From NCBI GenBank assembly GCA_002245135.1, contig NGBS01000002.1, forward strand, positions 186,001 to 250,000: a stretch of 64,000 bases of DNA. The letters are read 5' to 3'. Position 1 is the stretch's first letter, and each line of letters starts with the position of its first letter. The stretch comes from Proteromonas lacertae. Taxonomy: Eukaryota. The notes under the pieces were generated by a model that saw only the letters and a program-made list of their open reading frames with translations, was not told where the DNA came from and did not search any database. Shown here one piece after another: positions 21,801 through 55,055 of this stretch. The position numbers and the translations under genes were made by a program.

Positions 21801-24800
21801 TTGTGCTTAAACAATAAGCCAATATCCATTCACCAATTAATATAAACACACACATAAAACATACTCCTACACCTATTGGATGTACAAACGCTATTAATAT
21901 AAAACCCCATGCAACTGCTAGACTCATCACTGATATCATATCAATACCACATCTATTCTCATCTTTAATAGTATTTGTTTTAGCATCATATGAATAGATT
22001 GGGAATAAATATGGACTAAAATATAATGGACTATCTTCATTTCTATTACTAACACATATGAAGAAATCAATTACAAAGAATGCTGCAATAATGATCAATG
22101 ATACTGATAAGAAATAGACTAAAGAGACACTAAATATAAGTGAAACTAATAACAGAATAACTATGATTGTAACACCACCTCTCATTAGTTTATGTATCAT
22201 CTTTGGAGCTATATAATAATCATGTATCACCCATTGTCTTATCATATAATAAGCTAATATCAATACAGCTAATACTATTAACACAGATAAGGCTACTAAA
22301 TAATCAGCCCAGAAGTATAATGGAATATGGCAAATAATTAATATTACTAAATTCACCCACATATATGTTAGAGTTTTCTTACATAATTTCCATTCATCAT
22401 CCCACCATTTAATAATAGAACCACATAATAATATGAAGGATGGATATACGAATAACATCATTAATATTAATACGAAATTATCATTAGACATATCCCAATC
22501 TAATATAGCCCAACCACTGTATACTTCAGTTATTAAGAATAAAAACACTGTTAATATAATCATATTTTGAACATATATTGACATTTCATATTTATGGAAA
22601 TATCTTACTATTGGTTCTATTGTTGTTATTAATGTTAATAAAATCAATGCAATTAACATTCCAATCCAATGTGGTTTAATGAATATTGATAAGAACATTC
22701 CCATTAATAAGATTAATAATACATCGATGATTAATAATGCTATGACTATATAATCTTGCATTGTTAAACAACCAGCCCAGAATGCTTCCCATGATGATAA
22801 TGTTGCTGGATCAATAACTACATGTTGTTCTTCTTCTTCCTTTGGCTTTTCATCTTTTGGTTTCTTACCTTCTTCCATTTCTATTTCTTTCATTGCCTTC
22901 TTTCTAGCTTTCTCTTCTTCCTTTTGTCTTTTCTTTTCTTCTTTAGCTATTTGCTTGGCTGTATAACCTTCCACACCAAATTGTTCTCTTTCATCATACA
23001 TTATATTACCATTCTTATCAACTATACTCTTTGCATATGGTTTTCCTTCTTTTACTTCAGTTGGTTTATCATCTTTTGTTTGTTGTGGAACAGTTGCACC
23101 AGCTGTTATTGAACTACCTTGAATTGGAGGAGCTTCAAATCCTGTTGGTGTTTTCTTTGGTTTAGAAGCAGATGGTTGTGATGAAAGACCAGCTGCTCCA
23201 GGCATTGGTTGATGTTTTAAGAAACTATTAGCGGGTTTAGCAAATCCAGAATCAGGAGTAGCACCATTTCTAACACGGAAGGATGATGTAGCACCAATTG
23301 GAGCAGCAGTACCAGCTGGTTGAATAAATGAACCAGCTCTACCAGCACCTATTGTACTTGGAGTTGCCATTACAAATGATCCACCTCTTGCACTACCTAT
23401 TGATCTGCCTGGACCTGAAGCTGTTGGTACACCTCCTGCTCCTGGACCACCAATTGCACCTCCTACAAATGAACCTCCAACGAATGAACCACTTACCATT
23501 GAACCACCTGCATTGAATGTTGGTGCGATAAATGAACCAGTCTTTGTACCAACGGCTGCTGCTACTTGACTAATACCAGCTGCATTAGCTGCAGGAGTCA
23601 TAATGAATGAACCACCAGTTGTTGGATCAGCGACAAAGTATGAACTACCTCTTGATTTTGGAACACCACTTGCAATAAATGATGAAGTTCTAACAGGTAA
23701 TGGAGCACCAGTTACACCTTTACCAGGTCTTGAACCAGCAAATGCAGGTTTAGCTATTACTACACTATTATCACCACCACCAACCAATGAATTACTTGGA
23801 ATTGTAACACCTTTCTTTGGTTTCAAATTAGCTTGAGGAATAGCATTAGCTGGAATAACGAATGAACCAGATCTTACACCAATTGGAGCAGCCATACCAC
23901 CACCTCCACCTGTTGGTACAATGAATGAACCAGTCCTTCTTGCAGAAAATGAACCTGTTGATTTGGGAATAACAACTGAACCAGTTCCTTGTGGAATAGC
24001 ACCTCCAATGAAAGAACCACCACCCATACCACTCATACCAGGAGCTAATATTGATCCTTGACTAGGCATACCACCTAAGAATGAACTTTGACGAGGAGGA
24101 CCTCCCATTCCACTACCCATTGCTAATGGTGGAGCTACATTCCTTCTTGAACCAGATGTAGCACCTCTACTTCTCATGAAACTATTACCTTTACCAGCTA
24201 CAAATGAACCTGATCTTGCACCTAGTGGATTTCCCAATGGAGCACTTAATCCTGTTATACTGGATGGTGGTTGTTGTGATACTACTGGAGGACCTAAGGA
24301 TGATTGTGATGGTATAGTGAAACTACCTGATGGACCTGGTAGAGTTTCACCTGGAGCGACTTCTTGCATTAAATCTACATCAGTTGTACCATAATAATAT
24401 AAATTATAATATTCTTCACTGTTATAATATTGTTGTTCAATATCGATTTCTTCTTCTTTTTCTTTCTTTTCTGTACGTTTTTCTGGATCTTCAGTCCAAC
24501 TATAATCATTCTTTTGATATAACATAAATACACATATTGATATTGTAATAATTAATGGGTAAGAATATAAAGATAATCAACACAAATGGATTATCTGTCA
24601 TTCCATAGTTAATAAAACCACCTAAAATAAACAATATTTCTGTAATAATAGCTAAAACCCAAGGCAATCTTACTGGCTTTAAATACGAAATAATGATCAT
24701 TCTTTAAATTCCTATCACTTTCTAATCTAAATGCACGATATGTTGAGAATACTAAACTGAATAATATTCCACACATTAATGCTAATACTGCATAATCATA

Positions 24801-27504
24801 TAGATTCCATCTTACACCAAAGGCTGAAATTTCAGCTGGACCTTCATCATCCACAATAAATATATCCACTAACAACACAATTAAGAAATAAAATGAGATT
24901 AATCCAATAGAGAATAGATTTGTACCAAATAGATTATTATTCTTTCCTTTCTCACTTTCATGTATAATATCCACTTGAGTAGAATCTACAATAGACTTCC
25001 TTGGTAAACAATTAATAATAAATTCAAAACAAATAGCAAATGCAAATGTTAAATATGCAAACATATGTCCTAATAACCAATTATCACCACACCAAATACA
25101 GAACCATAATCTACTCAATCCAATAATAAATGCAGTACCACTTGGTCCCCAAGATACTTCTGCATTAATACAACTCCATAAGGATATATCTAATACAATA
25201 ATGGAGACAGTAGCACCAATTCCTTGACCACCATAATCTTCATTAGTAAATGGTGTAATGATACTGTACAATCCTAAAAACACTATTGCAAAAGCATACA
25301 ACATGATTGTTTCAGATCTTATCATTGTTTTACTCCTTCCATAATCTCCAGATAATGCATTTGAATATTTAAATACTTCTTGTGAAGGATCAATAGTATA
25401 TATATCATCTATAAAATCACTCAATAATGCTTGTTCTTCTAACAAATCATATTTATTCAACGTCTTCGGTGCATCTAAAATCTGTTTTGCTTCACCAGTT
25501 ATTGCCATTGTTAATAATTCATCTTCATTTACATCTCCCATTATAATATCTTGTTTATCATACAATTTCTCCAAGTGTTTTCTAGCTCTTTCCAACTTAG
25601 GATCATTAATAAAAACAATCCAAATCATAGGTATACAATTCATAGTTAACCATATACAACTAGATGCAAAGAATGATGTTGGTCTTTTATCAATATATAA
25701 AGCAATTAACATGAATGCAAATACACAAATAGCTGCTAGGAAGAAACACCATAATGTAGATCTTTGCATTCTCCAACCTCTCCTTTTCCAAGTTCCAATT
25801 CCATAATATAAACAGATTGCACATAAACCAAAGCATAAAATAGCTGCTCCAATAACAGGTGGATTTACTACAATAATGCAAGTTACACCCCAACTAATGA
25901 GTATTAATATTGGCATTAATAATATCATATATATAATAATCTTAGCAAAGTATAAATTCCTATTAAAATCTACATTCTGTATGTATCTACCATAGTTTAA
26001 GAATAAAGCACCAACTATATTTGGAGGTGATGTACCTATACCATTACCTCTGAATTTACAACTATCTAAATATGCATCTATTCTGTCAATTCTGAAATTC
26101 AATTTTTTGTCCATAAAATAACAAGTTAATAATCCAAAAAATAACAATGGAATAGCAAATTCTACTATATTTAATACGAAATCTACTTTCTCTAAATCAT
26201 CATCATATACAGTTTCTAATGGATCATAGGATATGATTGGTTTTATGATTGGTATATATGGATAGTTTGGTCCAGCTCGATGTTTAGATAAACCATATCT
26301 TGGACTCCATAATGTGATTCTAGTAGCTTCATTAAATACTTTCTCATAACATGGATGATCTATTGTGTCATCACTAGTTGAACTTTCTTGACGAAAATAT
26401 GACTATAAATATATATAAAAATAAATATAATAATATACAAATTTTGATTTTGTATATTGTTCCAATATCCAAGTAGGTATTCTCTCTGTTCTATAATCTT
26501 CATAATTCACACACAAATAAACAGTAGCTGGGTAATTTATAGAGATAGTTAAATATTCCTTAATATCAGCACTTAATTCTCTCTCTTTTGCATATCCTTG
26601 AACTAAGATACCACCCACTGGATCTCCAAATTTTTCATATTTATAGTTAATTTGAAATCCTAAATCATCTAAGAATGGAGCTCCCCACCATAATCTGTTT
26701 TCTTCTGGTTCATATAATCCAGCAACAGTAATTGATTTCTCTTTAAATCCATGTGAACTTTCTACCTTTACAGAAAATGCATTTACACTCTGACGGATTA
26801 ATAGACAAGCTGCATTTGGATTGAGGTAGGTTTGAGCTGATGAGATTGTATTGTTGATACACGGCACTCCATTCAGAGATAACCATAATATTTCTGAGCA
26901 TTGTTCTATTTAATAAATAACATATATATATACTGGCTTTATGTACTTCATGATCTTCTAAATTACTGGAGAATATTGAACAAGGCATCATTTTGGTAGA
27001 TGTTTCACCTAATAAATCATCACCAAATTCAAAGCCATCATCTAAATCCCATGCTTCTATTCTGATTGGAGTTCCTGCTGCTTTTACTCCAAACTATTCG
27101 TTAAATGATTAAATAAATTATATACATTCATTGAATATCCATCTCCCCATTTGGGATTTAAATCATTATATATTACAGAAGTTTCTCTTTTTGTAATGGC
27201 ATTCTTCTGGTTACTAGTTGCTGAACCTACGAATACTTTTACATATGGATCTGATTTATCTGAACCACCAAGTGTATCTTTATTTGGTAAGTTATATGCC
27301 TATGTTTGTAATTAACAATAATAATACTTCAACAACAGTTATAATTAATTCTCCTGCCATTTCTTGTGGTGAATTACACGCATTTTCATAAGGCCAGCCA
27401 GGCCATGAAGGATAATCATCACAAGAAAATCGAGTTTGATTGAAATCTGTTTTTCTTATGGCTGCACAGCATAATATAAAATATAATAGTATATTTAACT
27501 TCAT
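18823..27504 (-). CDS. Giant multi-pass membrane calpain-like protein (DEK1-like): signal peptide, C2, many TMs, GSF-repeat loop, inactive CysPc, calpain domain III, WW, PHD
   Basis: C2 (AYNLPNKD..SDPYVKV..NDLNPKW..WDLDD). CysPc (FQDPDFP, VDDYFP, LWVPLIEKAFAKYYGAY). WW (WKEMYDD..YYYDTTTGKSQWEKP). PHD (CTFC..C..C..HPTC..WTCEIC). Four GT-AG introns and two frame breaks near 24680 and 24558. Confidence 0.82.
23220..24330 (-). repeat. Low-complexity Gly/Ser/Pro loop with many (R/G)xGSF repeats
   Basis: Translation shows roughly 20 GSF/SSF/NSF motifs (RSGSF, RTGSF, RGGSF, RAGSF, GGSFVGGSF). Confidence 0.85.
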
Positions 27505-30223: not shown

Positions 30224-33200
30224 TTATGGCATTTTACTTCTTTTCCTTCTACCTATTGTTGATGTTTTCCTATTATTTACCAGAGTTGAACTTCTTTTTA
30301 GATGTGGATTTACACTCATATTTGTTGTATTAACGCTTGCCATTGAAATTGATGTTTTACTTCCTTCTGCAACACTTAGTTCTGAAGAATGAGTCAAACT
30401 ATCTGTATCTTCCAGAGCTTCATCGCTAGTAAATCTATATACAAACTTTGGAATGAATTGCAAACCAATAATAAATAAAATCATTAGCTGATATCCTATT
30501 CCTCTAAATAAAATTAAAGAATCAGGAGATGTTTCTATAACAAATTCTAAAGCAAATAAAACAAGTGAGAAGAAGAGTAAAATAATGAATTAAGAAAATA
30601 TTATATCAATAGATTCATTTAAAAAAAGATATATTCTACAATAAATGTTACTAATAACATATAAGAATCTAAAAACTCATTTGCTCTTCTTCTTCCTTGA
30701 ATAGATTGAATTAATCCATAAAATATATTAATTCCTATAAGTACTGCAATAACAATTCTATGGAAATAATAAAATAAATACAAATAATATATACACGAAT
30801 ATTTCATTAGTAGAACATTCTTCATAGTATGAATCTGACAAGAATGTTGTTTCACTATTATCCAATTGCAATGTATATTCTGTATGAGATATTGTTTGAT
30901 ATAATATAGAAACAAATAATGGGAGCAAATAATTTAGAGCAAATAGTTTCACAGCATATAAAACATGAATATGAATCTTACGAACTTCTCTTCTTTTTGA
31001 TTTTCTAATTTTCCTTGCTTTTACTGTGAGTAATGAAGTAACAAGTGAATATGATAAAACAACTAAATTGACTCTTAAATAACATACTAATGAACTATTA
31101 TTCTCTGGAGCATATATTGTTGTTATAACAGAACCACTAGCAATCAACAAAGTTAATATTATAAAGTAATGATAAGGAGTTGAGAAGCATTTTATTACTC
31201 TTTTATTTTTATATTTCATTGTAAATACTAATGCTGCTAAAAGTGCTAAGCAATTAATTGCACAGAATATTAATGCAATATATTGAAGAGCTACTGTTCT
31301 CTTTAAGATTATAGTATCTTTTGTATTGAAATAATCTGATGGAGTACCATCAGGAAATGGAACTGGTTCATAGGTTTTAACTTCACCAATCTTAGGATTA
31401 ACTTGAACAAAGCCAGTAGTGATAATTTCCATTAAAAATGCTGATCTTTTTACATAATTATTCTCATCAACTGTAATAAGGCCAGAAGGTGCTAAGTATT
31501 GTAAACCAGGTAAAGTTAATCGTATATAATCTGTTGAAGGCCAATTATCTTTGTCGTGAGAGTTTGAATCTTTTTCAGATATATAATTCTTAGCAATATT
31601 AACAGCTTCTTTGATTAACTGCATTGCTATATAAGTATTTTCATAGTAAGGAGTTATATAGAATTGAGAATCTAATTTATCTTTTGCATTGTTAATAAAT
31701 GCATAATTTGATGATGATTCAATTTCCTCTTGATATGATATTGGGATATAACTTCCTAGTGAATGTACTGATATATCTGATGATCCTAATAAATAATGAT
31801 CGAAGATAAAATTGACAAAAAAGAATCTTTTCAATCTCAAATTATATTTTATATAATACTTCATACAAGTGATGGAATTTGATAATTTCAATGCAATAAA
31901 TACTATGATTTAAATTATTATATAAAAGAATATACTAATCAAATTATTTATCTTACCATATATTGATTCAAATTTCTTCATTACAGTGTCACATTCTCTT
32001 CCATCATTGATTATTTTTTCACCTAATAATGCTGTGTTTGATATACTTTTTATACCTGTCACGATATTTTGATAATATTCAGCTGTAAAAATGATTAAGG
32101 ATAATCAATTAATAATATAAAAACAATCAAAAAAAGATATTCATTCTCTTTATCAATTAATATGAAATAATTGGTGAAATATTGTTTTGTATAATCTATT
32201 GATACTTGTACCATTTGCGATAATGTTGATCCAACAGTGAATGTATATTTGGAGAAGAAATTTCCATTACTATTACCTACATACATAAATATCATCCTTT
32301 TCTCATTTGTAACTTTACTAACAATATCTCTACATCCACTTGTTATACAACCAACTATTGCTTTGACTGATGGATCATTACATAATTCTATTGTTGTATT
32401 TTCTATCAATTCATTTGGTACTATTTTCACTATTGCATAAACTTCATAACCATTTATTCCTCCTGTATTATCTAATTGATTCACTGTATCGTCAAAACAT
32501 AACCATACATTATATTTTTCTTGATATGGCTCATAATCTTTTTCTACAATCAATGCAATTCGAATTATTTTCTCAATCTTATACACACCATTATGATTTG
32601 TAAAGTCACATGATTTTCCACTATTCTCTTTTATCCATCTTGAAAACGTATAAGGATAAACTAAACCAGATGGTGATGATACTGGTGTTAATACTTTATT
32701 CCTCATTTCAGTTATATATACTCTTCTTGACAAGTAATTGTTTGTTTCTAATTGAATATAACCAGTAGCAACACTATGTTTCTTTCCTGTCATACCTTTT
32801 CTTATTGATAATGGTTCAAAACTTCCACTTTCTCTTACTCCAGTTGCCCATAATTTAACTGCAGTATAGGCTGCTTCAACAATGGCAGTAACAACTACAG
32901 AATTCTTATATTCTTCTTGGAATTTATCATAAAACATTTTTAATTTCTGATTACTTCTTAATGTAGATTTGCCTAATACTGAGAACCAACTTGATATGAA
33001 TCTATCTTCTTCAAAATATTGTTCATTTCCTGTCAATATCAGCTCATCAACTAACATATGATAATAGATATATGTCGGAGGTTTTAAGCCAATTGAATAC
33101 GAGTCTTGTGCCAATTTCAACGAATCGTAAGAATAAACAATATCCAATAGAATTGCACCATTAGGATAGTCTACTAATATTTTCTGCAATGATTCTATAG

Positions 33201-36200
33201 AACTATAAAGATAAGCATCATATCGAACTTGAATTTCTTTTAATAATTCAGCAATAATATCTTTAGCAACAATACTAAATGATGAATTTGAATATACTAT
33301 TGCATATGCATTCGTTTGTTCCATTGAAAAAGTTGCTTTTACTGCCGATATTAATTGATTAAACACAGTTTGTGTTGTAATTCCAAAACTACTACAACTT
33401 TCACCTATTGCAATTCCTGGATAGAATAACAATTTCTTTGCTTTTGAGAAATAAGGTTCCATCACTTTATACTCATCATCCCAACTTCCACCAAATACAG
33501 TATTTAATCCTGTTAAAGCAGCTGTTTCTTGACTTAAAGCAGGCAATTTTTCTAAATCTGATGCTGTATCAATAACGTCCAATTCTATTTTATTTCCAGA
33601 AAGACCTCCTTCGCTGTTTATTTCTTTTATTGCCAATTGAATTGCACTTAATATTCCTCTGCCTCTTTCTTCATCTTCTCCTGTTAATGAAGTAACCACA
33701 GCAACTTTATGACTTGGATATTTATATTTTGCTCCATATTTTGAATTAGTTAAATCACATATATAAACTCCACTATTGATTAATTCTTTCCAAACTGATG
33801 GCTCACCTAAATCATCTGTTGATACTACTGATAATCTACCATCTGAATTACCTGAATATGATCCAATATATGTTACTCTTTTTGCAACATTGTTACTTGC
33901 TATTGTGAAAATTCCTGATGGTGACTTATACTCTGTATTGAAATATTCCAAATCTAATTTGCTAATTGGTATATCTTTATGATCATTAACTACTTTTTGC
34001 CAGAATAATACTGCAGTATAAAATGCCTCATGATAGCTATTTATAGGTATTCCTGTTGGTAAACCCACTTCCATTGCTTCTTTAAATGCTTTGTTTTCTT
34101 TTGTATCAATTGTATTAAAGTATTTATTTATTGAAAAGAATGGTTCAACTCCATATATTGCTGCATTTTCTGATGTTGAATATGAATAGAAATGATAATC
34201 TGAATCTACTGGTCTTAACTCTTTTAATGCAGCAGATATAAGAACATGCAACCTTACTGTACCAAAGAAGAATATAGAAGCATTACTTGTTAATCGTGCA
34301 ATCATATTCTTTATTGCAGACACTACGTTATCTGTTGTTTCATCTAATGTTATTGAGTATAATACATCTCCATATAAATAATTTATATATCTTTCAGAAT
34401 AAGTTGTAAATTTCAAACTTGTTGCATCAGATGTCCCAATTATTCCAAAAGATCTACGACCTAAATTCAAAGCTCTTTTAATAATAAATTCAACAGCTGT
34501 AGCATCAACACCAATATGGATGATATTCCTTTCACATGATTCTCCTCCATATACTCCAATGTGGAATATTTTAACTTCCTTTTCAATAGCTAATGCATTT
34601 ATCATATCTAAACAAATTGAACTTGCTGTTGTAAATATTGCACTGTAGTTTCCTTTTGTTAATAGATTATTCAATTGAGTATGACAATTTGTCGAATCTG
34701 ACTCATCATCAACTGTAGTGATTTCTACTCTATTTCCTCTGATAGCTTCATTATTATTTATCTCTTGTATTACTAAACTAAATATATCATTTATTCCTTT
34801 ATAATCTAAACTATAAGCACCTGACTCAGATGTTAAAAGAATGACTTTAATAACATCCACCATAACAGTTGCATCACTATTATCTCCTAGAACTAAAGAT
34901 GTATCACATAATTTTCCAAAATTTCCTGGTAAATGCCAATTAAATGATTCTGGCTCAACCTCTAAATACTTTCTAACAATTACAGCATTTGAACCTTCAT
35001 ACTTATATACAAAAATATCTCTATAAAGATAATTACTTTTAGCAAATCTTACATATTTTTCCATAGTTAATGTTTTATTGAATAACAGAGGCTTTATTAT
35101 ATTCATATTCAACGATCCTGCCTGTAACACACACTCATATACCTTCTCAAATAGTAAAACAGTAGATACACTTTCTTCAATAATATCTTCCATTCCTGTA
35201 TATTTATGAAGCAGATTATGAACATTTTTTATAATACTATTCTCAGAATCTGGTGCATCAATACCACCAATAAAATAGTAAGGTATTGTCAAGTCTGGTA
35301 ATTCTTCTCTAATTGTTATTGGATTGACTCTAACTTGAATTATATCATATATATCTCTATTTGGTTGTATAATCTCAATATTCTCCAACAAACTAACCAA
35401 TGGTATAACGTTTAAAAAACTAACAATTAAACCTCCTCTACCTAATTTAGATAAAATTGTTCTTACAGTATTTAATGATATTCTGTCATAATCACCTATA
35501 CTAAGTGTATATGCCATTGTAAATCTAGAATCCATTGTCATCATAAATACACCTCCAAAATATCCCCATGTATCCATCTTTGCATTACTGTATAATAATA
35601 CAACATTAAATCTATTCTCTAAACTCATCATAAATGTCATTGTTGAATCTATAATTTGGTTTGGAATTGGACCTGAAAATAAGATATTTGGATGGCATAA
35701 TTCAGCTTCAAATTTCTTTGGATATAATAACAACTTCCTTTCCTCTGTTAATAATATTTTCTGAATTGTATTTAAACAGAAATGTGTAGTACAACCTATA
35801 TACAATAAATTATTCTCATATTTCATTGAATCTTTAAGTCTTTGATCTAATGTTAAATCATTATCATTATAAAACAGAAATACAATTGACAATGGAACAC
35901 CAAATATACCACCTTTTTCATTTACATCTTCAATAGCAGCTACACAAGAAGATAGAATATAAATGAAATAAGGTTCATCTTTTAATGATAATATTACTGT
36001 TACATTCATTGCCAATTTTGGCAATTTATCTCCAATTCCATTCTTATTGTTTCCTGACCAATCACATGTATATATATCATATGACATATATCTTGTTGAA
36101 TATGGATCAGGTGAATAATCTGATGTACTATCAAATTTTACATCAAATTTATAACCCTCATCTGAGTTTACAACTTCAGCAATATATATTGGTATTGATA

Positions 36201-39200
36201 AATGGTGATTTTTAGTGGATGAAACCATACCAAATGAAGTATCAAAACTAATATCATTTAAAGTTGCTATGACATTTTCAACAGCAATGGATTTCTTTGC
36301 TTCTATTGCTTGTCTCCACAATAATACAGCTGATAATGCATAAAACTGATTTACAGATCTTGAAGTTATATAAGGATAATAAGCATCATAATACCTATTA
36401 ATTACAAATATTATTGAACTAGTATATTCAATTTTATCTGTCAGCAATATATGTCCTTCAAAATAAACAGCATATTCAGTATTAACAACCATAGCATCAA
36501 TCCCTAATATATAGAATGTATATTGTGGAGCTTTCAATCCAGACAAATATGCTAATTTATAAAATTCATATCTATTTGGACCATCTATTAAGGTGATTAC
36601 TATTCCATCACCTAATAAATGAAGTAATGTACTTTCTACAATTCCTGTCATATCTGTTGTATCAAATGGGATTTTCAATTTCTGATAGATTGATACATCC
36701 AAATCATTCAAATCAGCTTCAATTATCTTTGCTACTGTACTATAATAGTAATTATTTGTATAAACAATGATAATTCTCCTTTTTGTCCTTATATGATCTT
36801 CTTGAATATAATATCTTATGTATTTCTAGATAATAATAATATAATACTCATAATTAAAATACTCTTGCTGTAAATGGAACTCCAACATATGAAATACATT
36901 CTTCACATTCTAAACCTTCATAATCATGAGCATAAAATAATAGTATTTTGTTTTTTCTTAAGTATGGTATTGCTGCTTTTCTCATCTCAGAAATATAAAA
37001 TAAAGGAAATTATAATAAGAGACGAAGAAAAAAAAAGATATTTACTTAATCCGAACATAAAACTAACACCATTTTCTACTAATATAGAAGTAGCATTACC
37101 TATTCTAGATGGATCTGACTGAATATCAATCGTAATCGGGTGAATATATAATCCTCTAATACCGTTATATTCTATATTACATAAATCAATGGCCATTAAA
37201 TATGTTGATAATAAACTAATATCTTGTAAAGAATAAGAACCAGATAGAGAAACTAATAATCCAACCTTAATAAGAGATCTTTCATATCTCTCAGAAAATG
37301 ATTCTTTCCAATTACATGTATATATTCTACTTTCTCTATAGGTTCTTTTCCATATTTGAGAATCAAATGTGGCTTTTATTGTATATGTAACAAAACGAAG
37401 TAGACCATCACTATCTTTTTTATACATACTAATAGGTCTTGATAAAACGTTGGTTCTATCCATTTTCAAATAACCAAATGGACTTTCTTCATCAATACTA
37501 TATACATTTTCAAATATATAGGATTGCTTAACAGAATCATCTGTTTTTAACAAAACTGATAACATATATAAAGATAATAGAACATTTATTTCATCTCCTC
37601 TAATTACATAACTCTGTGTCAAAATACTATTAATCTGCTCTTGAATATTTGATTCAGTAACTAATTGAGATGTAACAACGTATTGATTTACAGTATAACT
37701 TTTATCTATCAATCCAAAAGTATAATCATCAAAACATATTACAGTATAAGGTTTTGATAAATTAAATGCACTTAATCTGTCAATTATATACTGCTTAAAC
37801 AATTTAAAGAATGTTTTTAATGATTCACCACTTAATGTTGTAACTATAAAAGTATTTGATGATCCATAGTAAGTAATGTTCTCAAGGAATGAAATTACAT
37901 CATCTTTTAGATTTGCTTCATTTACTTTCATCAATCCAGATACTTCAAAATTAATTACATCAAATGAACTTATTATAATGTCATTATATACTTCCATTGA
38001 AGGATTTGAATCATAAATAAAAGCTATTTGTTTTCCAAATGCATATAACATGTAATTGATTGAATATGATATATATTGATCTGGTGATGGAGTAATCAAA
38101 TATCTAATAGAAATATGATGATAAATATTATATTATAAATACGAGTTCTGTTTACATATTCCTCCTGTATTTACTCCTGTATAAAATAGTACAGTTTTCT
38201 TCAATACTTCATCCTCTGCAAATGTATTTATAGTATTTGTATCACATCCACCAATAAAAATCAATATGCCAAAATCTTCTATTCCTTTTTTTATTTTTGT
38301 TAGCTTAACATTATTTGTTGGACAATCGTACAAATGAGGAACCTATTATATTTACATAATATGATATTTAACATACAACAAATCTTTCATTGAAATGATA
38401 ATTTCCTCTAAGTTCATTCAAATACCAATTGATTAGTATCACATTCTGTAAAGCCTTTGTAGATGTTATATCATCAAATATAAATCCGAAATGAAGAGGA
38501 ATATTTCTACCATCACTACTACCACCGTTCTGTTGATAAAAATCACATACTCTATCATAATTATCAGTAGTCTATATATATATAAAATGAATTATTTATA
38601 CAGTCCAATCATATCCATTTGAATATAATGGAGATGGATATGAAACATATAATTCTTCATTATAATTACCATTATTGTCATCGCTAATTAATCTAGTTAG
38701 ATAAAAACTTTTAGAGAAATATCTTCCATCTGTTACTTTCATATTATTACCTTCTGGAGTATCAATATTCATATCTTTGAAATGTAATAATACAGTTGAA
38801 GCTTTAAGCATTTTCTTTGATTGAATAGCATCTCTAGTTTTGATAAGAATTTCATAAAATGATATGAAATCTTCTTCTAATAGTAATTCTGTATCTCCAA
38901 GATAAGTCTCTATATTCTTAATCATATTCATATTTGCTTCATTTTCTAAATCTTTATAATACGAAGTCAATATCAAATGATCACTGAAATTTTGAAATAA
39001 TTCATCACCTCTATTGTATAATAAATTATTAACATATCTTCTGGATAAGGTAAAATGTATATTCTCAGCATTTCCTGTTCTACAACTAACATTATTAACA
39101 AATTTCACTGTTGTATCTCCCATTATGAAGAAATTCTTCTGCTTCGTTGTACAATCCCTAAAATCATTATCAAATGATTCAGCTCCTGATTCTATCTCTA

Positions 39201-42200
39201 TAAATTCACATTTTTTAGTAGTATAACTATTAGCAAGAAATTTCTTTGCAGATACAATCATATGTTGAGAATATGAATCATTTGTATAATATATAACACA
39301 TTTATCTGATTCTAATATTAGGTAGTTCAGTGCTGGATATAAACTATTATCAATAGTTCTAGAATAGTATATCAATTAAGAAATCAATAATTGTTATATA
39401 TAACATTAAAAAAAGATATAACTATAGTGTTTGCTTCACACACATCTCCATCGAATGGATAGAATAGAAATAATATTTTATCATACACTGTTATTATATC
39501 ATTAAGTATCTTTCTATTTTCTCTTCTATTTAATAATATATATAATGTAAAAAATTATACGATATAACTCCTGTAAATGCAAAAACAAGTTCATCTTTTG
39601 CTAACGCATTCAATTCTTTTTTGATTTCAGAAAGTGACTTTTCATATTTGGGGAAGATTGGCTTTACTATTCCATTTAATAAACCACCTTGAATATTTAA
39701 AAAATCACATGCTGCAATTGCTACTTCAGCCAAATTAGAAAATATCTTTTGATATTCATGTTTATAAGGTAGTAATACAACTAGTTTATAGACATTGTAC
39801 GATGAATGTATGTCATTATTAAACACTATAATAATTATATTAGAAGATAATTATATATATATATATACCATAATGAGAATAATCACAAATCTGATTTGTA
39901 TTTTCAATCATCACATAAGTTCTAAATGATGCATAAGTTTTAGAACTTAACGAAAACAACCTCACATAGTTCTTTTTTGTTCCCTATATAATAATTAGAT
40001 AAAATGATATATACCATTACTAAATGAAATCCATTAATTGCATAACCTGACTCAGTTATACCAAATGGACCATTAGTAGTATTAATATAAGTTCCAACTA
40101 TTTGCCTATTTAATTAATATATATTTAACTGTAATAATACTTTTGAATATATTCATATTTTGTTGATAAAGCATTCAACATCCACTATTATAGATAATAA
40201 TAATATTTTATAAATACTTCTTTAAAGAGATATATTGCATTATATGCTGTAATCTGATCATTACTAATTGCACCTTCATTATCAGTATAATATTTCTTTA
40301 TATTCTCTTTTAATTCATTAAGATTTCCTTGATTTTCATCAACATAGTATGAAAAAGTGTAGAATTTATATGGATATTCATAACCTGTATCTAAAAACAA
40401 ATTTTGATTAATATCGGGGATTATAATTCGATACATTGAATTCATATCTTGAATATTAATAGCTTTAACAACCAAATCTAAATACTCTTCTTCTAAACAC
40501 AATATTCCATATCCTACAGCTTCTATATCTATATCATTGCTCTCTTCATCAGAAGCTAAAATAGAATCAAGTTCTTTTCCATCTAATTTAATAATACAAA
40601 TAAATAAATAATATATACAAGGATATAACGTAGATCTAAACACTGATATAGCTGTCATTGCTTCAGCTCTTGAACATTCAATCATTTTATATTCCACTAT
40701 ATTTGTAATACCATTCTCTATTAATTTCTCCTTCCATTGTTTCGCTGTAATTGTTCCATATTCTAATGTACTTGATATTATGACAATTGGATTTGTATTT
40801 TCTCTCAAAAGAGTTGTAAATGCTTTTGATATTTTAGCAGTAGTTGAAATTGCTGTAGTAACCAATTTTTCTTTACATTCAGCACTAGATGCGTATTTCA
40901 AAGCTATTACTTGAACATTTGTTAGCTTTTGAATTGATAACTGATTTAATAATTCATTTCTATCTTCCATTCTTAACGTGGTTAAAATATAATTAAATTC
41001 GCCTGTATCATAGAATCTTTTCAACTATATTATAAGTAAAATAAAGTGAAATTATATACTGTTTTAACTGTTTGAGTAATATTCATATTACCATCCATCA
41101 ACATTGGCAATATTCTAACTCCAAAATTATTAAACTACAATATATTATAATGAATTAATATATACATTAATTAATTCTCTCATAGCTTGAATTACTGCAT
41201 CAACAATATACATATCTTTACCTGAATAAGGCCCAGTAATATACACTATTAGAGCAATATCATATTGTTGAATATCTTTCACTTTTGGACTTTGGAATGA
41301 ACAAGTAATCTTTCTTGGCCTTCCATAATAGAAATTGTAAGTAAATAATTCATCTCTTTGAATAGTAACATCAGTTATTAAATTTCCACTTCCATCATGA
41401 TTAGTTGATAAATATACATCAGAAGTAAGCGTATTTATATGCGATACAAATATTGATACTTTATCATTGCTGCTTGATATATTTACTTCAATAGTGTTAT
41501 CATACAAAACATAAAACAAATTTGGTACAAAATCACTCAATGTCTTTTTATAACCATATAAAAATACTTCAAACATTATATGCAACTTATAAAAGACTAA
41601 ATCTTCTAAATCAGGGGTGGGTTTATACAAAACATTATAATAACTAAGATATTCAGCATAATATGTTACTATTATATCACTTGTATAATAATTATAATTA
41701 TATAATTCCATAACTTCTATATTTAAAGGTATTTCATAATAATCATTTACATCTATAAGGTCTTGTAGAATTGATTCGGTTGTGGTTGGATCTGCTAATA
41801 TAACAAGGTTAATCTCTTCGTCATATTCATTAAAAGTGTTGATTAAAATATCACCAGTTCTTTGAGGTATTGCATTTTCACCAGGTTGAAGAGGAGGTAA
41901 TTCAACTAAAGTTCCACCAATTATAGGAAGGAATTCTTTTAAATAATCTACATATACAGAATATGGATGATTTTCTTGATATAGTACAGCTATGAATTTT
42001 GATTCTTTAACCATATACATTGTATCTATGTAAAAAATTAATCATAAAGGGTGTATACATCTTTCAGCATATCTTCTAAACGATCCATAATACATGATAT
42101 TACTATGACAAGCATCAAATAACTGCGGTGTTGTAGTCCACAGTATCATTTTTGATTCTATCAGTTTCTCATTGATTTTGGTGAAATTATCGAAGATTAT

Positions 42201-42485
42201 ATACGTAAATATATGCGTAACTTTATTATTCTTAAAATACTGTAGAGCTTGATCAAAGTTAACCCCATTCTTCTGACAAGTTGTATTAAATGCTACTAAC
42301 GAGTTTTCCGACAACTTAACGTCTATATTACCGAGAAAGTTCTTTATATCTACATCTGGATTAGGTGCTCCTGTATTATCAATCTCGTTCAAAAATCCTA
42401 TATTTGTCGTAGCAATAACAACTACATATAAAATTTCGATACAAAACAAAACTTTGTCAAACCTAAAACTATATCTATTAACCAT
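30224..42485 (-). CDS. Giant class C GPCR-like receptor with about nine tandem UrtA/AmiC-type periplasmic-binding modules (~3,850 aa)
   Basis: All ORF fragments join in frame via about 19 introns. Modules repeat the pattern V..SLSG..AI.EIN..GG..G, FYP..GE.C..NI, AAY.AV.LW and a linker CD. The C-terminus has 7 hydrophobic helices with KNKRVIK, C.LR..VKARKI, an ECL2 Cys, NEFLDS and FIPKF. Confidence 0.8.
30577..30632 (-). other. U12-type AT-AC intron (56 nt)
   Basis: ATATCTTTTTTT..TTTTCTTAAT..TTTTAC. Removal restores TM6 (FIVEFFFSLVLFALEF). An AT-AT acceptor 6 nt earlier is also in frame. Confidence 0.8.
32085..32140 (-). other. U12-type AT-AC intron (56 nt)
   Basis: ATATCTTTTTTT..TATCCTTAAT-CATTTTTAC. 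Removal gives DKENE-AEYYQNIV in frame. Confidence 0.88.
36993..37041 (-). other. U12-type intron with AT-AT termini (49 nt)
   Basis: ATATCTTTTT..TTTCCTTTAT..TTATAT. Removal gives FGLSNSEMRKAAIP, colinear with UrtA-type FGCWTSASRKAVLP. The nearby GT-AG alternatives are out of frame. Confidence 0.75.
39367..39419 (-). other. U12-type AT-AC intron (53 nt)
   Basis: ATATCTTTTTTT..TTTCTTAAT-TGATATAC. Removal gives CEANTIV-YSRTID in frame; I found no GT-AG solution. Confidence 0.85.
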
Positions 42486-47385: not shown

Positions 47386-48027
47386 TTATGGATATTCCAA
47401 TAATGCTGCTTTTCTTTCATCTTCATTCGTTATACTTCTTACTACACGACAAGGATTTCCTACTGCAACACAATCACTTGGAATATCTTTGCCAACTACA
47501 CTTCCACTACCAATTATTACTCTATCACCAACAGTAACACCTGGAGTAAATGTAACACTTCCACCAATTACACAATCCTCACCAATATTTATAGGCATAC
47601 CATATTCCCAACCATCTGCTCGTAATTTATAATCCATTGGATGATTTACATCATAAATACTAGTTCTTGGACCAAATGTGGTTCTATCACCTACTGTAAC
47701 TGGACATATATCCATTACGATTGAATCGGCATTAAAGTATACACCTTCACCGAAATGACAACGAAAACCATACTCAGTACGAATTGGTGGTTCTAAGTAA
47801 AAATTTGTCTTTGATGCAGGAAATATTTGATGTAGCAAATCCATTCGATATTCTTCTTCCTCATAATTAGCTCCATTATATCTCTTTACAAGCATTCTTA
47901 CATCAACAAATTCTTTGTGTATCTCAGGATCTACTGGACAAGAAGGGTTGTATAAATCTCCTGCTTCTAGTCTTTCTCTCTGTGTTCTTTTATCATTTGG
48001 ATCAACAGTTTTCTCTTTTGATGGCAT
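47386..48027 (-). CDS. Maltose/galactoside O-acetyltransferase (hexapeptide repeat)
   Basis: LEPPIRTEYG, left-handed beta-helix repeats, GSVVGKDIP..AVGNPC; intronless. Confidence 0.92.
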   Translation of the reverse strand: MPSKEKTVDPNDKRTQRERLEAGDLYNPSCPVDPEIHKEFVDVRMLVKRYNGANYEEEEYRMDLLHQIFPASKTNFYLEPPIRTEYGFRCHFGEGVYFNADSIVMDICPVTVGDRTTFGPRTSIYDVNHPMDYKLRADGWEYGMPINIGEDCVIGGSVTFTPGVTVGDRVIIGSGSVVGKDIPSDCVAVGNPCRVVRSITNEDERKAALLEYP

Positions 48028-48166
48028 ATTTTCGGAAGAATAAAGATCTTATTATTGTGTTTAGTTTTTGAAATATTAGATTGAAATATGTTTTTCTAAT
48101 TAAGAAGAATCTGTCTTTTTTTTAAGTATAAATACTTGGCTCGTGAATTGTGTCTCAATATTAAAA

Positions 48167-49441
48167 ATGCAATTAACAGCTAATAAAACAATATTTCTTT
48201 CAAAATTTGTTGGAAGTTTTGTTGGACTGTTTCTTGAGGGTATGCTAGATGTGGCAAATGGAGTTATATTACCTTTAATTAAGAAATATCATGGTTTTAA
48301 CTACAAATTTTATAGTCTCATGCTTACACTATCTGGAATATTTGGAATCACATTTTCATACATCACAGCTTTTGTTATTAAGAAGTTTGGCTACAGATAT
48401 TCCTATTTCTGTGCGTACATGTGTTATATTCTTGGATACCTTGGTTTTTATTATGTGGAAGCACCTGCTTTAATTGTAGTGAGTTATATTATTATTATAA
48501 TTGGTCAAAATTTTATTGATCTTTCTGCTAATTCTTTGGGTAGTGCAATATATATAAAATATGTAGCTATTATGTTTTCATTGTCTAATTGCATTTATGG
48601 AGTTGGTTCATTAGTAGGTCCTCCATTTATTCAATTATTAGAGAATACTCAAAAATCATGGTGTTATAAGGAGTATAGTTTAATGTTACTTATCCCAGTT
48701 GGTATATCATTTATTATATCAATCTTTACTCCCTATGATAAAGATACAGGATATGAAAGAAAGCCAGAAAATGCAAAACCATCTGAAGATGTAAAAACAG
48801 TAGAAAAGAGACTAACTTCTAAAGAAGTATTCTTTTCATCAAGAGCAATGTTAATGACAATTATTTTAGGACTGTTCACACTTTGTGAGAAATCAACAAC
48901 TGCATGGGGCTATTTATATGCAACTGAATATCTTCATCAAGATTCTACAATTGGTAATAATTATTTGACATACTTTTTTATGATTTTCACTATATCAAGA
49001 TTTGTCAATGGATTTATAACCGAGAAGATTGGTTTTTTCCCTATGTTGGAAATTATTGGAACAATGGTTTGTATTTTGTCATTAATAGGATTTAGTTTTA
49101 CAGAAGGAACAACAGGATTATATTTTTTAGCTAGTTGTGGCTATTTTGTTTCTACATTTTGGCCTTGTATGTTAGGTGTAATAATCGAAGTATATAAAGG
49201 CAATGCAGAAACAGCAACAGGATGTATATTACCAGGTCAAGGAGTAATGATAATGTTGGTTAATTCTGTTCTTGGAATAATCAATGATTCATTTGGAAAT
49301 CAATATGCTTATATGATTTCGATGGCTTTTTGTGCTGTTGCTTTGTCATTGACAATCTTCTTACATTGTATGGTATATTTAGAAAGAAAAGAAGAACAAA
49401 AGAAGAACAAAAATAACTTATTAACAAATGAAAATATATAA
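48167..49441 (+). CDS. MFS permease (FucP/MFSD4-like), intronless
   Basis: About 12 hydrophobic segments, YGVGSLVGP, E..TTAW, SRFVNG. Confidence 0.8.
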   Translation: MQLTANKTIFLSKFVGSFVGLFLEGMLDVANGVILPLIKKYHGFNYKFYSLMLTLSGIFGITFSYITAFVIKKFGYRYSYFCAYMCYILGYLGFYYVEAPALIVVSYIIIIIGQNFIDLSANSLGSAIYIKYVAIMFSLSNCIYGVGSLVGPPFIQLLENTQKSWCYKEYSLMLLIPVGISFIISIFTPYDKDTGYERKPENAKPSEDVKTVEKRLTSKEVFFSSRAMLMTIILGLFTLCEKSTTAWGYLYATEYLHQDSTIGNNYLTYFFMIFTISRFVNGFITEKIGFFPMLEIIGTMVCILSLIGFSFTEGTTGLYFLASCGYFVSTFWPCMLGVIIEVYKGNAETATGCILPGQGVMIMLVNSVLGIINDSFGNQYAYMISMAFCAVALSLTIFLHCMVYLERKEEQKKNKNNLLTNENI

Positions 49442-49526
49442 TAAAATTAATAAATTATAATATATTTATTTTATTGTTCAATTTCAAAAAAGAAATCATA
49501 AAATAGATTTAATTATTCTTATAAAG

Positions 49527-50138
49527 TTAACTACTAGCATATTCTGTAGCAGCTGCTTGTCTTTCTTCTGCACTTTTTATTTGTTTAATAACATGACAAG
49601 GGTTTCCAACAGCTACACAGTCACTTGGAATATCTTTACATACTACACTTCCACTTCCTATCACTGTTCTATCACCTACAGTAACACCAGCTACAAATAC
49701 TGTTGAACCACCTACAAAACAGTCTTCACCAACTGTTATTGGCTTACCTAACTCTAAACCACTGTTTCTTTCATTATGATCAATTGGGTGAGTTGCTGCA
49801 TAAAAACTAGCTCTTGGACCAAACCAACTTCTCGCACCTATTCTTATTGGACATATATCAAGGATAATAGCGTTATAATTCATATATGATCCTTCTCCAA
49901 AGTAACAATTATCACCATAATCAACATGAAGTGGTGGTTCGATATAAAATGGTTTTGGACAATTCGGGAATATTTCATGAAGTAATTTAATTCTATATTC
50001 TTCTTCACCTGGGTAAGTCTCATTAAACTTCTTAACTATTTTCCTGACTTCAATAAAACGTTTTCTAATCTCTGGATCAGTTGGGTCATAAAGCTCTCCT
50101 GCAATCATTTTTTCTCTTTCTGTTTTGGTTTCACTCAT
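49527..50138 (-). CDS. Maltose O-acetyltransferase
   Basis: MSETKTEREKMIAGELY, IEPPLHVDYG, ATHPID..RNSGLELGKPI. True start is ATG 50138 by comparison with the paralog. Confidence 0.93.
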   Translation of the reverse strand: MSETKTEREKMIAGELYDPTDPEIRKRFIEVRKIVKKFNETYPGEEEYRIKLLHEIFPNCPKPFYIEPPLHVDYGDNCYFGEGSYMNYNAIILDICPIRIGARSWFGPRASFYAATHPIDHNERNSGLELGKPITVGEDCFVGGSTVFVAGVTVGDRTVIGSGSVVCKDIPSDCVAVGNPCHVIKQIKSAEERQAAATEYASS

Positions 50139-50424
50139 TTTTGGATTTATATTTCTAAAATGACAAACTATTGGCTTGAGTAATTGTGTTTCAATTCTTA
50201 ACAAAAAAAAAGAAACACAAATAAGTGTTATTTATCTGCTACACTTAACTAGATGATATATTACTATTTAAAATCAACCATTTATTTTTTTCTGTTGATA
50301 TTTTAAGTGTTTATGACTTTATTAATACAAAAAATATAATGAAGTAAATGTTATGTCTTTTCAAATACAAAACATATTCTCTTATTATAATGAATACTAC
50401 TTTAAAAAGTGAATATTATTTTCA

Positions 50425-51036
50425 TTAACTACTAGCATATTGTTTAACAGCAGCTTGTTTATCGTCTGGATTATTTAAGTGTTTAATAACATGACAAGGG
50501 TTTCCAACAGCTACACAGTCACTTGGAATATCTTTACATACTACACTTCCACTTCCTATCACTGTTCTATCACCAACAGTAACACCAGCTACAAATACTG
50601 TTGAACCACCTACAAAACAGTCTTCACCAACTGTTATTGGCTTACCTAACTCTAAACCACTGTTTCTTTCATTATGATCAATTGGGTGAGTTGCTGCATA
50701 AAAACTAGCTCTTGGACCAAATAAAGTTCTTGCTCCTATTCTTATTGGGCAGACATCAAGTATTACAGCATCAAAATTCATGTATACACCTTCACCAAAG
50801 TAACAGTTCCAACCATAATCAACATGAAGTGGTGGTTCGATATAAAATGGTTTTGGACAATTAGGAAATATTTCATGAAGCAATTTATTCCTGTATTCTT
50901 CTTCATCAGGGTCAGTTGCGTTAAACTTCTTAACTATTTTCCTGACTGCAACATACTCCTTTCTTAGCGATGGCTCCATTGCATTATAAAGCTCTCCTGC
51001 AATCATCTTCTCTTTTTCTGTTTTGGTTTCACTCAT
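50425..51036 (-). CDS. Maltose O-acetyltransferase (tandem paralog)
   Basis: Same motifs; 3' half nearly identical in DNA to the 49527 copy. Confidence 0.93.
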   Translation of the reverse strand: MSETKTEKEKMIAGELYNAMEPSLRKEYVAVRKIVKKFNATDPDEEEYRNKLLHEIFPNCPKPFYIEPPLHVDYGWNCYFGEGVYMNFDAVILDVCPIRIGARTLFGPRASFYAATHPIDHNERNSGLELGKPITVGEDCFVGGSTVFVAGVTVGDRTVIGSGSVVCKDIPSDCVAVGNPCHVIKHLNNPDDKQAAVKQYASS

Positions 51037-51251
51037 TTTTGGATTATTAATTTTCTAAAATGACAAACTATTGGCTTGAATAATTGTGTTTTTGACTTTA
51101 CATTTTTAGATTTAACAAATTGGAACACAAATACAATTAAACATCATGCATTATTATAATACATTATTATTCATTTTTAATTATAACATCTCACGTAACT
51201 AAATAAATAATTTAAAATACACATAGAAAACACGTATGTATGTGTAGAACA

Positions 51252-54200: not shown

Positions 54201-55055
54201 TAATTGACACTAATTTGAATGTTATTAGAGCTGTTTCTTCCAATATCATGTTCATATCATATGTTGATATATATGATATATCATTAATAACACCTTTATC
54301 TTCTGGTACAATGTTTATTTCACTAATTATGTCTTTATTATAAATTGGATGTGATAAAAGTGAACACTTTGGAAAGGAACATCTATTATCAGTACTAAAT
54401 GACTCATTAATGTAATTGACTAATATACCGTTTGGAAAACTAGACATTAAAGATTTATCTTCAATTATTATAGTAAAACTACTGCTATAATCTATTTTTT
54501 CGTTTGAGCAAAATACATTCACATCAATTAATGCTGATTCTGTAAAATATCCTGTAATTACTCCTGTATAACTGTCAATCTTTAGGTTATTATCATAAAC
54601 ATTTGCGATCTGGTAATTAGAACAGTCTGAATCTGTAATAGGTGATAAGAAAAATGTGATATGTGTAGTTGTATACACATTCTTAGTTGAAGTGTAAGTA
54701 AATAAAGTTGTATTCTTAAAAACTATTCAAGTGGAAAAATAAAAAATATACCTTGAATGATAATATTCTCTTTTAGGATATTTTTCTTCGTGAAACCAAA
54801 CACCGTTACATTTGCTAAACAAGCCTGTTGAGGTCGTCCAAAAATATATCCAGTTTTGGGATTTAGGTAAATTCCAATCGGTAGTCCAACAGCATCATAC
54901 TTAATTATCTCTTTACCCAAAGATGGGACATAACCACTTATTTCATCGTTTATAATATATGTATATGTAAAGGACTCGTTGTATATTTGTTGATATTCTT
55001 TTGGTTGAGATATTCGAATAAATAGAAGATAAAACAACAAAAATACTACGGTCAT
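51252..55055 (-). CDS. Type I membrane protein with putative-Ig repeats and a PA14-like domain
   Basis: Signal peptide, LPxGLxFNxxxGxIxG repeats, C-terminal TM. One GT-AG intron near 54723-54751 and a frame break at ~53644-53680. Confidence 0.78.

What the first reader, a model, noticed from the sequence alone, without database searches (positions are those of the whole stretch)
30224..42485. Class C GPCR-like receptor with about nine tandem bacterial-type urea/amide-binding Venus flytrap modules
Seen: the ORF fragments splice into one ~3,850-aa protein. Modules start near 42410, 41260, 39790, 38500, 37275, 36010, 34855, 33712 and 32570, and each of the first eight ends in a Cys-containing linker (CSF, CDY, CDF, CNW, CDW, CDT, CDL, CDF). 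Seven TM helices with class C-like marks follow, then a Ser/Thr-rich basic tail. Established: class C GPCRs (GABA-B, mGluR) normally carry a single flytrap. The best-kept modules here (SLTG..AIKEIN.EGGLSG, EAAYTAVKLW) resemble bacterial UrtA/AmiC solute-binding proteins. Inference: a laterally acquired binding domain was tandemly amplified and diverged on a 7TM scaffold, giving a possible multi-ligand nutrient sensor.
Basis: partly seen in the sequence, partly recalled or inferred. Interest (0 to 1): 0.9.

Follow-up and report, generated by a model that had tools for sequence, protein, structure and literature searches.

The report
Nine-flytrap class C receptor
This protist gene is predicted to encode one 3,841-residue surface receptor in which nine head-to-tail copies of a bacterial urea-binding protein sit on a class C GPCR membrane core; distant relatives keep the urea-gripping residues and would likely sense urea, while this copy has lost them and likely senses other small molecules.

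Summary
Confirmed. Nineteen short introns (15 GT-AG, four U12-type-looking AT-AC/AT-AT) join the fragments into one stop-free 3,841-aa frame; homologues span 18 of 19 junctions in register. It reads signal peptide, nine flytrap modules, 7tm_3; module 1 is only weakly supported. The modules derive from UrtA, and the 'Cys linker' is UrtA's own C-terminus. The design is a family: three unbroken nine-module ORFs (P0001-3), 33 AT-rich pieces, and 2-3-module forms in a chytrid and Capsaspora. P0001-3 keep all five key urea residues in 20 of 27 modules; the window keeps at most one per module, so it is not a urea sensor. Modules group by position (133 of 136) and a module pair is predicted to pack rigidly (pTM 0.92). 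Ligand, mRNA and G-protein coupling are untested. The host fits a Proteromonas-like flagellate (inferred). No paper describing the architecture was found. The scan noted a paralogue earlier in this genome (e1-10696960).

The parts
30224..42485 (-). Whole gene: 20 exons, 19 introns, 3,841-aa predicted receptor
   Evidence: stop-free spliced frame; 18 of 19 junctions spanned in register by homologues
42405..42485 (-). Likely signal peptide (aa 1-27)
   Evidence: hydrophobic stretch aa 7-25; P0024 starts alike; no signal-peptide predictor was run
41262..42404 (-). Module M1, most degenerate; probable flytrap
   Evidence: family HMM E 5.5e-4, both Cys kept, hhalign probability 1.7%; no Pfam hit
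39791..41261 (-). Module M2 (flytrap)
   Evidence: family HMM E 1.5e-41; hhalign 99.4%
38500..39790 (-). Module M3 (flytrap)
37272..38499 (-). Module M4 (flytrap)
   Evidence: E 1.2e-51
36010..37271 (-). Module M5 (flytrap); lobe-1 pocket residues S,S,Y,D,E conserved in relatives, best candidate ligand site
34852..36009 (-). Module M6 (flytrap)
33712..34851 (-). Module M7 (flytrap)
32566..33711 (-). Module M8 (flytrap), closest to UrtA
   Evidence: phmmer to 8HIC E 2.6e-20; model matches UrtA 8TG1 at Z 44.6, rmsd 2.5, 363 aligned
31298..32565 (-). Module M9, membrane-proximal, lacks the Cys pair; degenerate also in P0001-3; likely relay
30431..31297 (-). Class C seven-helix domain (aa about 3516-3773) with TM3 and loop Cys, TM3 basic residues, TM6 acidic residue, TM7 PK motif; no cysteine-rich domain before it
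   Evidence: 7tm_3 E 1.6e-12; hydropathy; alignment; marks as listed in PMC3727952
30224..30430 (-). Ser/Thr-rich, basic cytoplasmic tail and stop
39367..39419 (-). AT-AC intron, 53 nt, U12-type look, inside M3
36993..37041 (-). AT-AT intron, 49 nt, U12-type look, inside M5
   Evidence: spliced junction matches P0011 letter for letter over 8 residues
32085..32140 (-). AT-AC intron, 56 nt, U12-type look, inside M9; site shared with homologues
30577..30632 (-). AT-AC intron, 56 nt, U12-type look, inside TM6

Best explanation
The locus holds nine tandem UrtA-derived flytrap modules on a class C seven-helix core, likely one cell-surface chemoreceptor whose pockets have lost the urea residues and are predicted to bind other small solutes, with M5 the likeliest live site. 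Shown: domain order, UrtA ancestry, loss of the urea residues, position-specific divergence of the modules. Predicted: neighbouring modules pack in a fixed orientation (M7-M8 model), each closed by its own Cys pair. Inferred: the minimal unit is [UrtA sensor]-[ligand-less relay]-7TM, as in the two-module chytrid protein P0122; the sensor was multiplied to eight; closure of a bound module would shift its packing on the next one and be passed through M9 and a short GABA-B-like stalk to the helices, which would activate a heterotrimeric G protein. In P0001-3 the array would be a many-site urea sensor; in the AT-rich lineage of the window it expanded into many receptors with different pockets.
For: One frame and domain order. 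Same order in single unbroken ORFs P0001 (3,909 aa), P0002 (4,080), P0003 (3,745). UrtA ancestry. Urea residues (W120, S122, Q144, Y190, N246 of PMC10392092): 5 of 5 in 20 of 27 modules of P0001-3, at most 1 of 5 in 9 of 9 window modules and in 127 of 136 modules of the divergent group; the two Cys kept in 128 and 126 of 136. Nearest neighbour is the same-position module of another protein for 133 of 136. M7-M8 model pLDDT 92.4, pTM 0.92 over 762 residues. Last module degenerate in P0001-3, P0033, P0070, P0122. M5 pocket identity 0.78 against background 0.37 in 3 close relatives. If the host is Proteromonas-like, G-alpha genes exist (7 in P. lacertae, with 116 7tm_3 proteins; PMC12129017 Table S5).
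Against: Pockets of M6-M9 are less conserved than the average column across all relatives (0.12-0.16 against 0.21-0.23) and not significantly above it in close relatives, which fits loss of binding as well as diversification. Even in M5 only lobe 1 is well kept. M1 is weakly supported. Signal passage across eight modules is not shown; pTM is a model confidence from 33 sequences for one pair only. No genome was held, so G-alpha genes were not searched; the host is inferred from G+C and gene content only.
Confidence: 0.55

Rival explanations
1. The modules have lost ligand binding and form a rigid stalk or adhesive antenna that holds a tip or surface away from the membrane, so the protein would be a contact or force sensor rather than a chemoreceptor.
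For: M6-M9 pocket columns are more variable than average while the fold and Cys pair are kept; fixed module packing is predicted; module number nine is kept in the window, P0001-3 and P0024.
Against: M5 lobe-1 pocket is conserved across 18 relatives (Y 16, D 12, E 14 of 18); M7 and M6 pocket strings look similar in close relatives though not significantly; the ancestral state has intact sites.
Confidence: 0.25
2. Only one module (M5, or one near the membrane) senses a ligand; the other eight are passive relics kept for spacing or folding.
For: M5 is the only module with pocket conservation above background; two- and three-module relatives carry a single UrtA-like module.
Against: Each position forms its own long-lived clade, which suggests separate roles; P0001-3 keep 6 to 8 intact sites each.
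Confidence: 0.12
3. It is still a urea or amide sensor like its ancestor.
For: UrtA is the best sequence and fold match.
Against: At most 1 of 5 residues whose single mutation reduces or abolishes urea binding in UrtA is kept per module; TIGR03407 score 263 over five stretches, under the 492.75 cut-off.
Confidence: 0.04
4. The stretch is several separate genes or a decayed pseudogene.
For: No transcript was seen; four junctions need non-GT splice sites.
Against: All 19 gaps are 30-56 nt with splice signals and restore one frame; homologues read across 18 of 19 and the 19th ends homologous ORFs at the same place; whole-length relatives are single ORFs.
Confidence: 0.04

Closest known systems
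GABA-B receptor and GABA-B-like protist class C GPCRs (diatom, Dictyostelium Grl)
   Same: 7tm_3 core with class C marks; type I flytrap joined to TM1 without a cysteine-rich domain (PMC3727952 passages).
   Different: Nine flytraps rather than one; the modules match UrtA (Z 44.6) far better than GABA-B (Z about 31); dimer and G-protein coupling untested.
UrtA, urea-binding protein of the UrtABCDE ABC transporter (PDB 8HIC, 7S6E, 7S6F, 8TG1), and AmiC (1PEA)
   Same: Fold, length and, for the cyanobacterial type, the Cys pair and C-terminal CDW end.
   Different: Concatenated and fused to a eukaryotic 7TM; window modules lack the urea residues.
BvgS-type sensor kinases with tandem flytraps (PMC4352136, abstract)
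   Same: Tandem flytraps with a mobile distal and a closed membrane-proximal module passing strain to membrane helices: a working analogy for M1-M8 and M9.
   Different: Bacterial, two modules, histidine-kinase output; its modules are of another binding-protein family (recalled).
Capsaspora CAOG_05347 (P0070) and Phlyctochytrium bullatum HDU96_010091 (P0122)
   Same: Tandem Peripla_BP_5 modules, degenerate last module, 7tm_3.
   Different: Three and two modules; both are database entries named hypothetical, with no function found in print.
EhVFT of Entamoeba histolytica (PMC12965686, passages)
   Same: Bacterial-type flytrap used as a surface receptor by a gut protist.
   Different: Single, GPI-anchored, no 7TM.

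Membership tests
Class C (glutamate family) GPCR | 7tm_3 domain above the curated cut-off | tested here: met
   48.1 bits against 33.5 on the exon holding TM1-TM4; seven hydrophobic segments
Class C (glutamate family) GPCR | TM3/loop Cys pair, basic residues at the end of TM3, acidic residue at TM6, PK in TM7 | tested here: met
   seen in the alignment; marks as given in PMC3727952
Class C (glutamate family) GPCR | Extracellular type I flytrap before TM1 | tested here: met
   nine copies instead of one
Class C (glutamate family) GPCR | Obligate dimer | not testable with these tools
   needs biochemistry or a structure of the whole receptor
Class C (glutamate family) GPCR | Ligand-driven coupling to a heterotrimeric G protein | not testable with these tools
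   no genome held; G-alpha counts come from a paper on the inferred host
mGluR/CaSR/T1R subfamily | Cysteine-rich NCD3G domain between flytrap and 7TM | tested here: not met
   no NCD3G hit in the exon that spans the end of M9 and TM1; about 20 residues separate them
UrtA (TIGR03407) | Type I binding-protein fold closest to UrtA | tested here: met
UrtA (TIGR03407) | Urea residues W120, S122, Q144, Y190, N246 | tested here: not met
   at most 1 of 5 in each of 9 window modules; 5 of 5 in 20 of 27 modules of P0001-3
UrtA (TIGR03407) | Score above the family cut-off | tested here: not met
   263 bits against 492.75 for the long exon
U12-type (minor) introns | Extended ATATCYTT donor, branch motif near the 3' end, AC or variant end | tested here: met
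   4 of 4 non-GT introns; donor is ATATCTTT rather than the recalled ATATCCTT consensus
U12-type (minor) introns | Minor snRNAs in the genome and splicing seen in RNA | not testable with these tools
   no genome; no Rfam hit in the window

The most novel reading that the evidence does not exclude
An unrecognised, widely spread eukaryotic receptor family built by chaining a cyanobacterial-type urea-binding protein onto a class C core: its conserved members are urea-sensing GPCRs with up to eight allosterically coupled sites on one chain, and gut flagellates turned the same nine-slot scaffold into a large chemoreceptor repertoire in which each slot carries a different pocket, so that one receptor integrates several solutes.
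Probability: 0.35. Interest if true: 0.88.

Novelty: new variant of a known kind. Interest (0 to 1): 0.72.

Why it matters
Class C GPCRs are described with one ligand-binding module per chain, and activation is explained by closure of that module in a dimer. A chain of nine packed flytraps asks how a distal binding event reaches the membrane and whether one receptor can count or combine ligands. The relatives with intact sites give a direct test for a urea-sensing GPCR (I recall none known). The natural series of 2, 3 and 9 modules, with and without urea residues, makes the question testable and offers a scaffold for multivalent biosensors. The expansion appears tied to a flagellated gut lineage: P. 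lacertae has 116 7tm_3 proteins and 7 G-alpha, the eight Blastocystis genomes none (PMC12129017 Table S5). Separately, three minor-type introns sit inside a domain of bacterial origin and so were gained after the transfer, which bears on whether minor introns can be newly gained.

Tried and rejected
No whole genome held: no paralogue or G-alpha search. No sequencing run was listed. Single-sequence fold of most of M1 was useless (pLDDT 38). The ESM Atlas gave no answer. Complex job on two copies of M8: no verdict. The 7TM search for shorter relatives returned one weak hit, P0178 (only 7,998 candidates scored). The metagenome scan gave 51 loci, none with a multi-module ORF. The first GTDB scan found nothing. 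My first host guess, Blastocystis, was dropped: eight Blastocystis genomes have 0 7tm_3 and 0 G-alpha and G+C of 21-23% or 39-55%, and the TGTTTGTT motif occurs only 9 times in 64 kb. A GT-AG reading of the four odd gaps was rejected because it breaks the frame or removes conserved residues. One origin of the eukaryotic modules is not settled: FastTree 0.968 with two unlabelled rows inside, unresolved in quick IQ-TREE, not rejected by AU test, p 0.52. Literature searches without a description of the architecture: (listings only). Zahonova et al. 2023 was not held. Supplementary file 12 of PMC12716839 and fig. S3 of PMC3971589 were not seen and may list the Capsaspora or chytrid architecture.

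Full report
Observation. The minus strand from 42485 to 30224 is coding sequence broken by 19 gaps of 30-56 nt. Removing them gives one frame of 3,841 residues without a stop. Fifteen gaps are GT-AG introns of 30-43 nt. Four are 49-56 nt, begin ATATCTTTTT, hold a branch-like motif and end in AC (three) or AT (one); four such sites were seen where 0.007 were expected in 300 Markov simulations. The model was checked against homologues: for 18 of 19 junctions the best local alignment to a relative runs across the junction in register; many of these alignments are weak, but those at aa 1304, 1658, 1702, 3682 and 3724 are strong. The 19th (aa 3263) is not spanned in that test, but 15 of 33 AT-rich homologous ORFs stop in the first half of M9, 6 of them with a Y-L/P-F tail (a seventh Y-L-Y) as an unspliced AT-AC donor gives, 3 with a GT-like tail and 5 otherwise. 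The neighbours are a divergent sugar transporter and a glycosyltransferase-61 gene. No RNA run was listed.

Domains. Pfam finds Peripla_BP_5 in 4 of the 10 fragments of the gene and 7tm_3 above cut-off in the exon 30761-31909. A profile built from the family finds nine consecutive modules, E 1.5e-41 or better for M2-M9 and 5.5e-4 for M1; M1 is therefore probable, not proven (hhalign 1.7% against 99.4% for M2). Window modules are only 8-20% identical to each other. M8 matches solved UrtA best (E 2.6e-20). An AlphaFold2 model of M7-M8 from a 33-sequence alignment has pLDDT 92.4 and pTM 0.92; its best matches are UrtA (Z 44.6, rmsd 2.5, 363 aligned) and AmiC (Z 42.6), with GABA-B at about Z 31. 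The high pTM over two domains indicates a confident relative orientation for this pair. The alignment shows that the C-D-x end of each module is UrtA's own C-terminus; both Cys occur in 25 of 25 cyanobacterial UrtA sampled. A disulfide is inferred, not seen. The 7TM has the class C marks listed in PMC3727952 (passages) and joins M9 without a cysteine-rich domain.

A family. P0001 (3,909 aa), P0002 (4,080) and P0003 (3,745, cut at the start) each hold nine modules and 7tm_3 in one unbroken ORF. Of the 150 hits listed, 33 are AT-rich ORF pieces with three or more modules; 7tm_3 follows in 9 of 23 scanned. P0024 covers M1-M8 and part of M9. Shorter forms are named by their sources: Capsaspora owczarzaki CAOG_05347 (three modules and 7tm_3), Phlyctochytrium bullatum HDU96_010091 (two and 7tm_3), and a Pfiesteria protein with modules but no 7tm_3 hit. 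Among 594 GTDB matches (scan cut at 600 rows), 79 of the best 80 are titled as cyanobacteria, at 55-59% identity to P0002. Trees put the eukaryotic modules with the Cys-pair UrtA group; a single origin is supported by FastTree (0.968), unresolved in IQ-TREE and not rejected (p-AU 0.52). Direction and date of the transfer are not shown; bacterial sampling was biased to the best hits.

Ligand sites. PMC10392092 (passages) shows that mutating W120, S122, Q144, Y190 or N246 of UrtA reduces or abolishes urea binding. All five are kept in 20 of 27 modules of P0001-3, but at most one is kept in each window module and in 127 of 136 modules from 30 proteins of the AT-rich group (modules covering under 270 profile positions were dropped, and 4 of the 33 pieces were not included). 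The last module is degenerate in every relative. In the AT-rich group the nearest neighbour of a module is the same-position module of another protein in 133 of 136 cases (127 by identity), with numbering anchored on the last module; in P0001-3 only 7 of 27. So the nine slots were fixed before the AT-rich group radiated, while the arrays of P0001-3 need not be slot-for-slot orthologous to it. Pocket columns are above background in M5 (0.78 against 0.37 in 3 close relatives, p 0.001; 0.32 against 0.22 in 18, p 0.06) but below background in M6-M9 across all relatives. This is the main result against a plain multi-ligand reading.

Mechanism. Shown: architecture, ancestry, loss of the urea site, slot-specific divergence. 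Predicted: fixed packing of M7 on M8. Inferred: the two-module protein P0122 is the minimal unit, sensor plus ligand-less relay, much as BvgS has a mobile distal and a closed proximal flytrap (PMC4352136, abstract). Closing a bound module would shift its packing on the next and pass through M9 to the helices and a G protein. I put 0.55 on a chemoreceptor with new ligands (M5 first; its Gln-to-Asp change hints at an amine-type ligand, inference), 0.25 on a ligand-less stalk or contact sensor, 0.12 on a single live site, 0.04 each on urea sensing and on separate genes. Confidence in the gene and its architecture is about 0.93.

Host. Window G+C is 27.8%. PMC12129017 (section 5 and rows of Table S5) gives Proteromonas lacertae 27.0% G+C, 116 7tm_3, 182 periplasmic-binding-like, 7 G-alpha and 6 maltose acetyltransferase proteins; the window has three of the last. 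The eight Blastocystis genomes have 0 7tm_3 and 0 G-alpha. A Proteromonas-like flagellate fits; this was not tested by sequence. Blastocystis is known to have AT-AC-rich minor introns (PMC10639083 and PMC5608401, passages); there 346 lie in 319 genes, so four in one gene is unusual. Nineteen homologous ORFs span the M5 site without a break, at least five of them ending in an intron-like tail and so likely genomic (P0011 shows no insertion there): the AT-AT intron is lineage-specific, and any intron in a module of bacterial origin postdates the transfer.

Novelty. Non-metazoan class C receptors with varied or bacterial-type ectodomains are known (PMC3971589, PMC12716839, PMC3727952, PMC10445921; passages, and section 9 of the second). 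I found no paper that describes tandem UrtA modules on 7tm_3 (searches; listings only); the Proteromonas expansion appears only as domain counts in a supplementary table. Supplements that list architectures (file 12 of PMC12716839, fig. S3 of PMC3971589) and the P. lacertae genome paper were not seen. The scan itself noted a 3,855-aa nine-module receptor on another piece of this genome (e1-10696960), which was seen after my reading was formed, is unchecked here and is not counted as support; a sequence look-up found no look-alike, so it is likely a distinct paralogue. Verdict: real, a new variant of class C GPCR, interest 0.72.

Noticed in passing
window 39367-39419, 36993-37041, 32085-32140, 30577-30632 (-): Four U12-type-looking introns in one gene, one with AT-AT ends; three lie inside modules of bacterial origin. 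The M9 site is shared by homologues, with AT-like tails in some and GT-like tails in others, which hints at U12/U2 conversion.
   Followed up: partly
window 18823-24576 (-): 1,917-aa open frame with a calpain protease domain followed by calpain III, WW and PHD-like domains; upstream frames at 24609-27093 have no Pfam hit and may belong to the same giant gene.
   Followed up: no
window 47386-51054: Three maltose/galactoside acetyltransferase genes on the minus strand, with an MFS transporter between the first two.
   Followed up: no
window 12913-18084 (-) and 51252-54726 (-): Large surface-type proteins with He_PIG Ig-like repeats, the first also with a PA14 domain.
   Followed up: no
window 56983-62662 (+): Long open frames (589, 156 and 1,154 aa) without any Pfam hit.
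   Followed up: no
P0038: Two UrtA-type modules fused to a glutaminase domain, cluster of 46 members; P0004 and P0006 join such modules to ephrin-like repeats or a TRP-like membrane domain.
   Followed up: no
P0031, P0032, P0040, P0058, P0106: Proteins of about 1,500 aa with an intact UrtA module at each end around HEAT, NACHT-helical or AAA domains; source organisms not known.
   Followed up: no
P0024 against window 36826-42485: P0024 runs through M1-M8 without a break yet ends in an intron-like tail, whereas the window gene has 15 introns in M1-M5 and none in M6-M8: strong intron turnover between relatives.
   Followed up: partly
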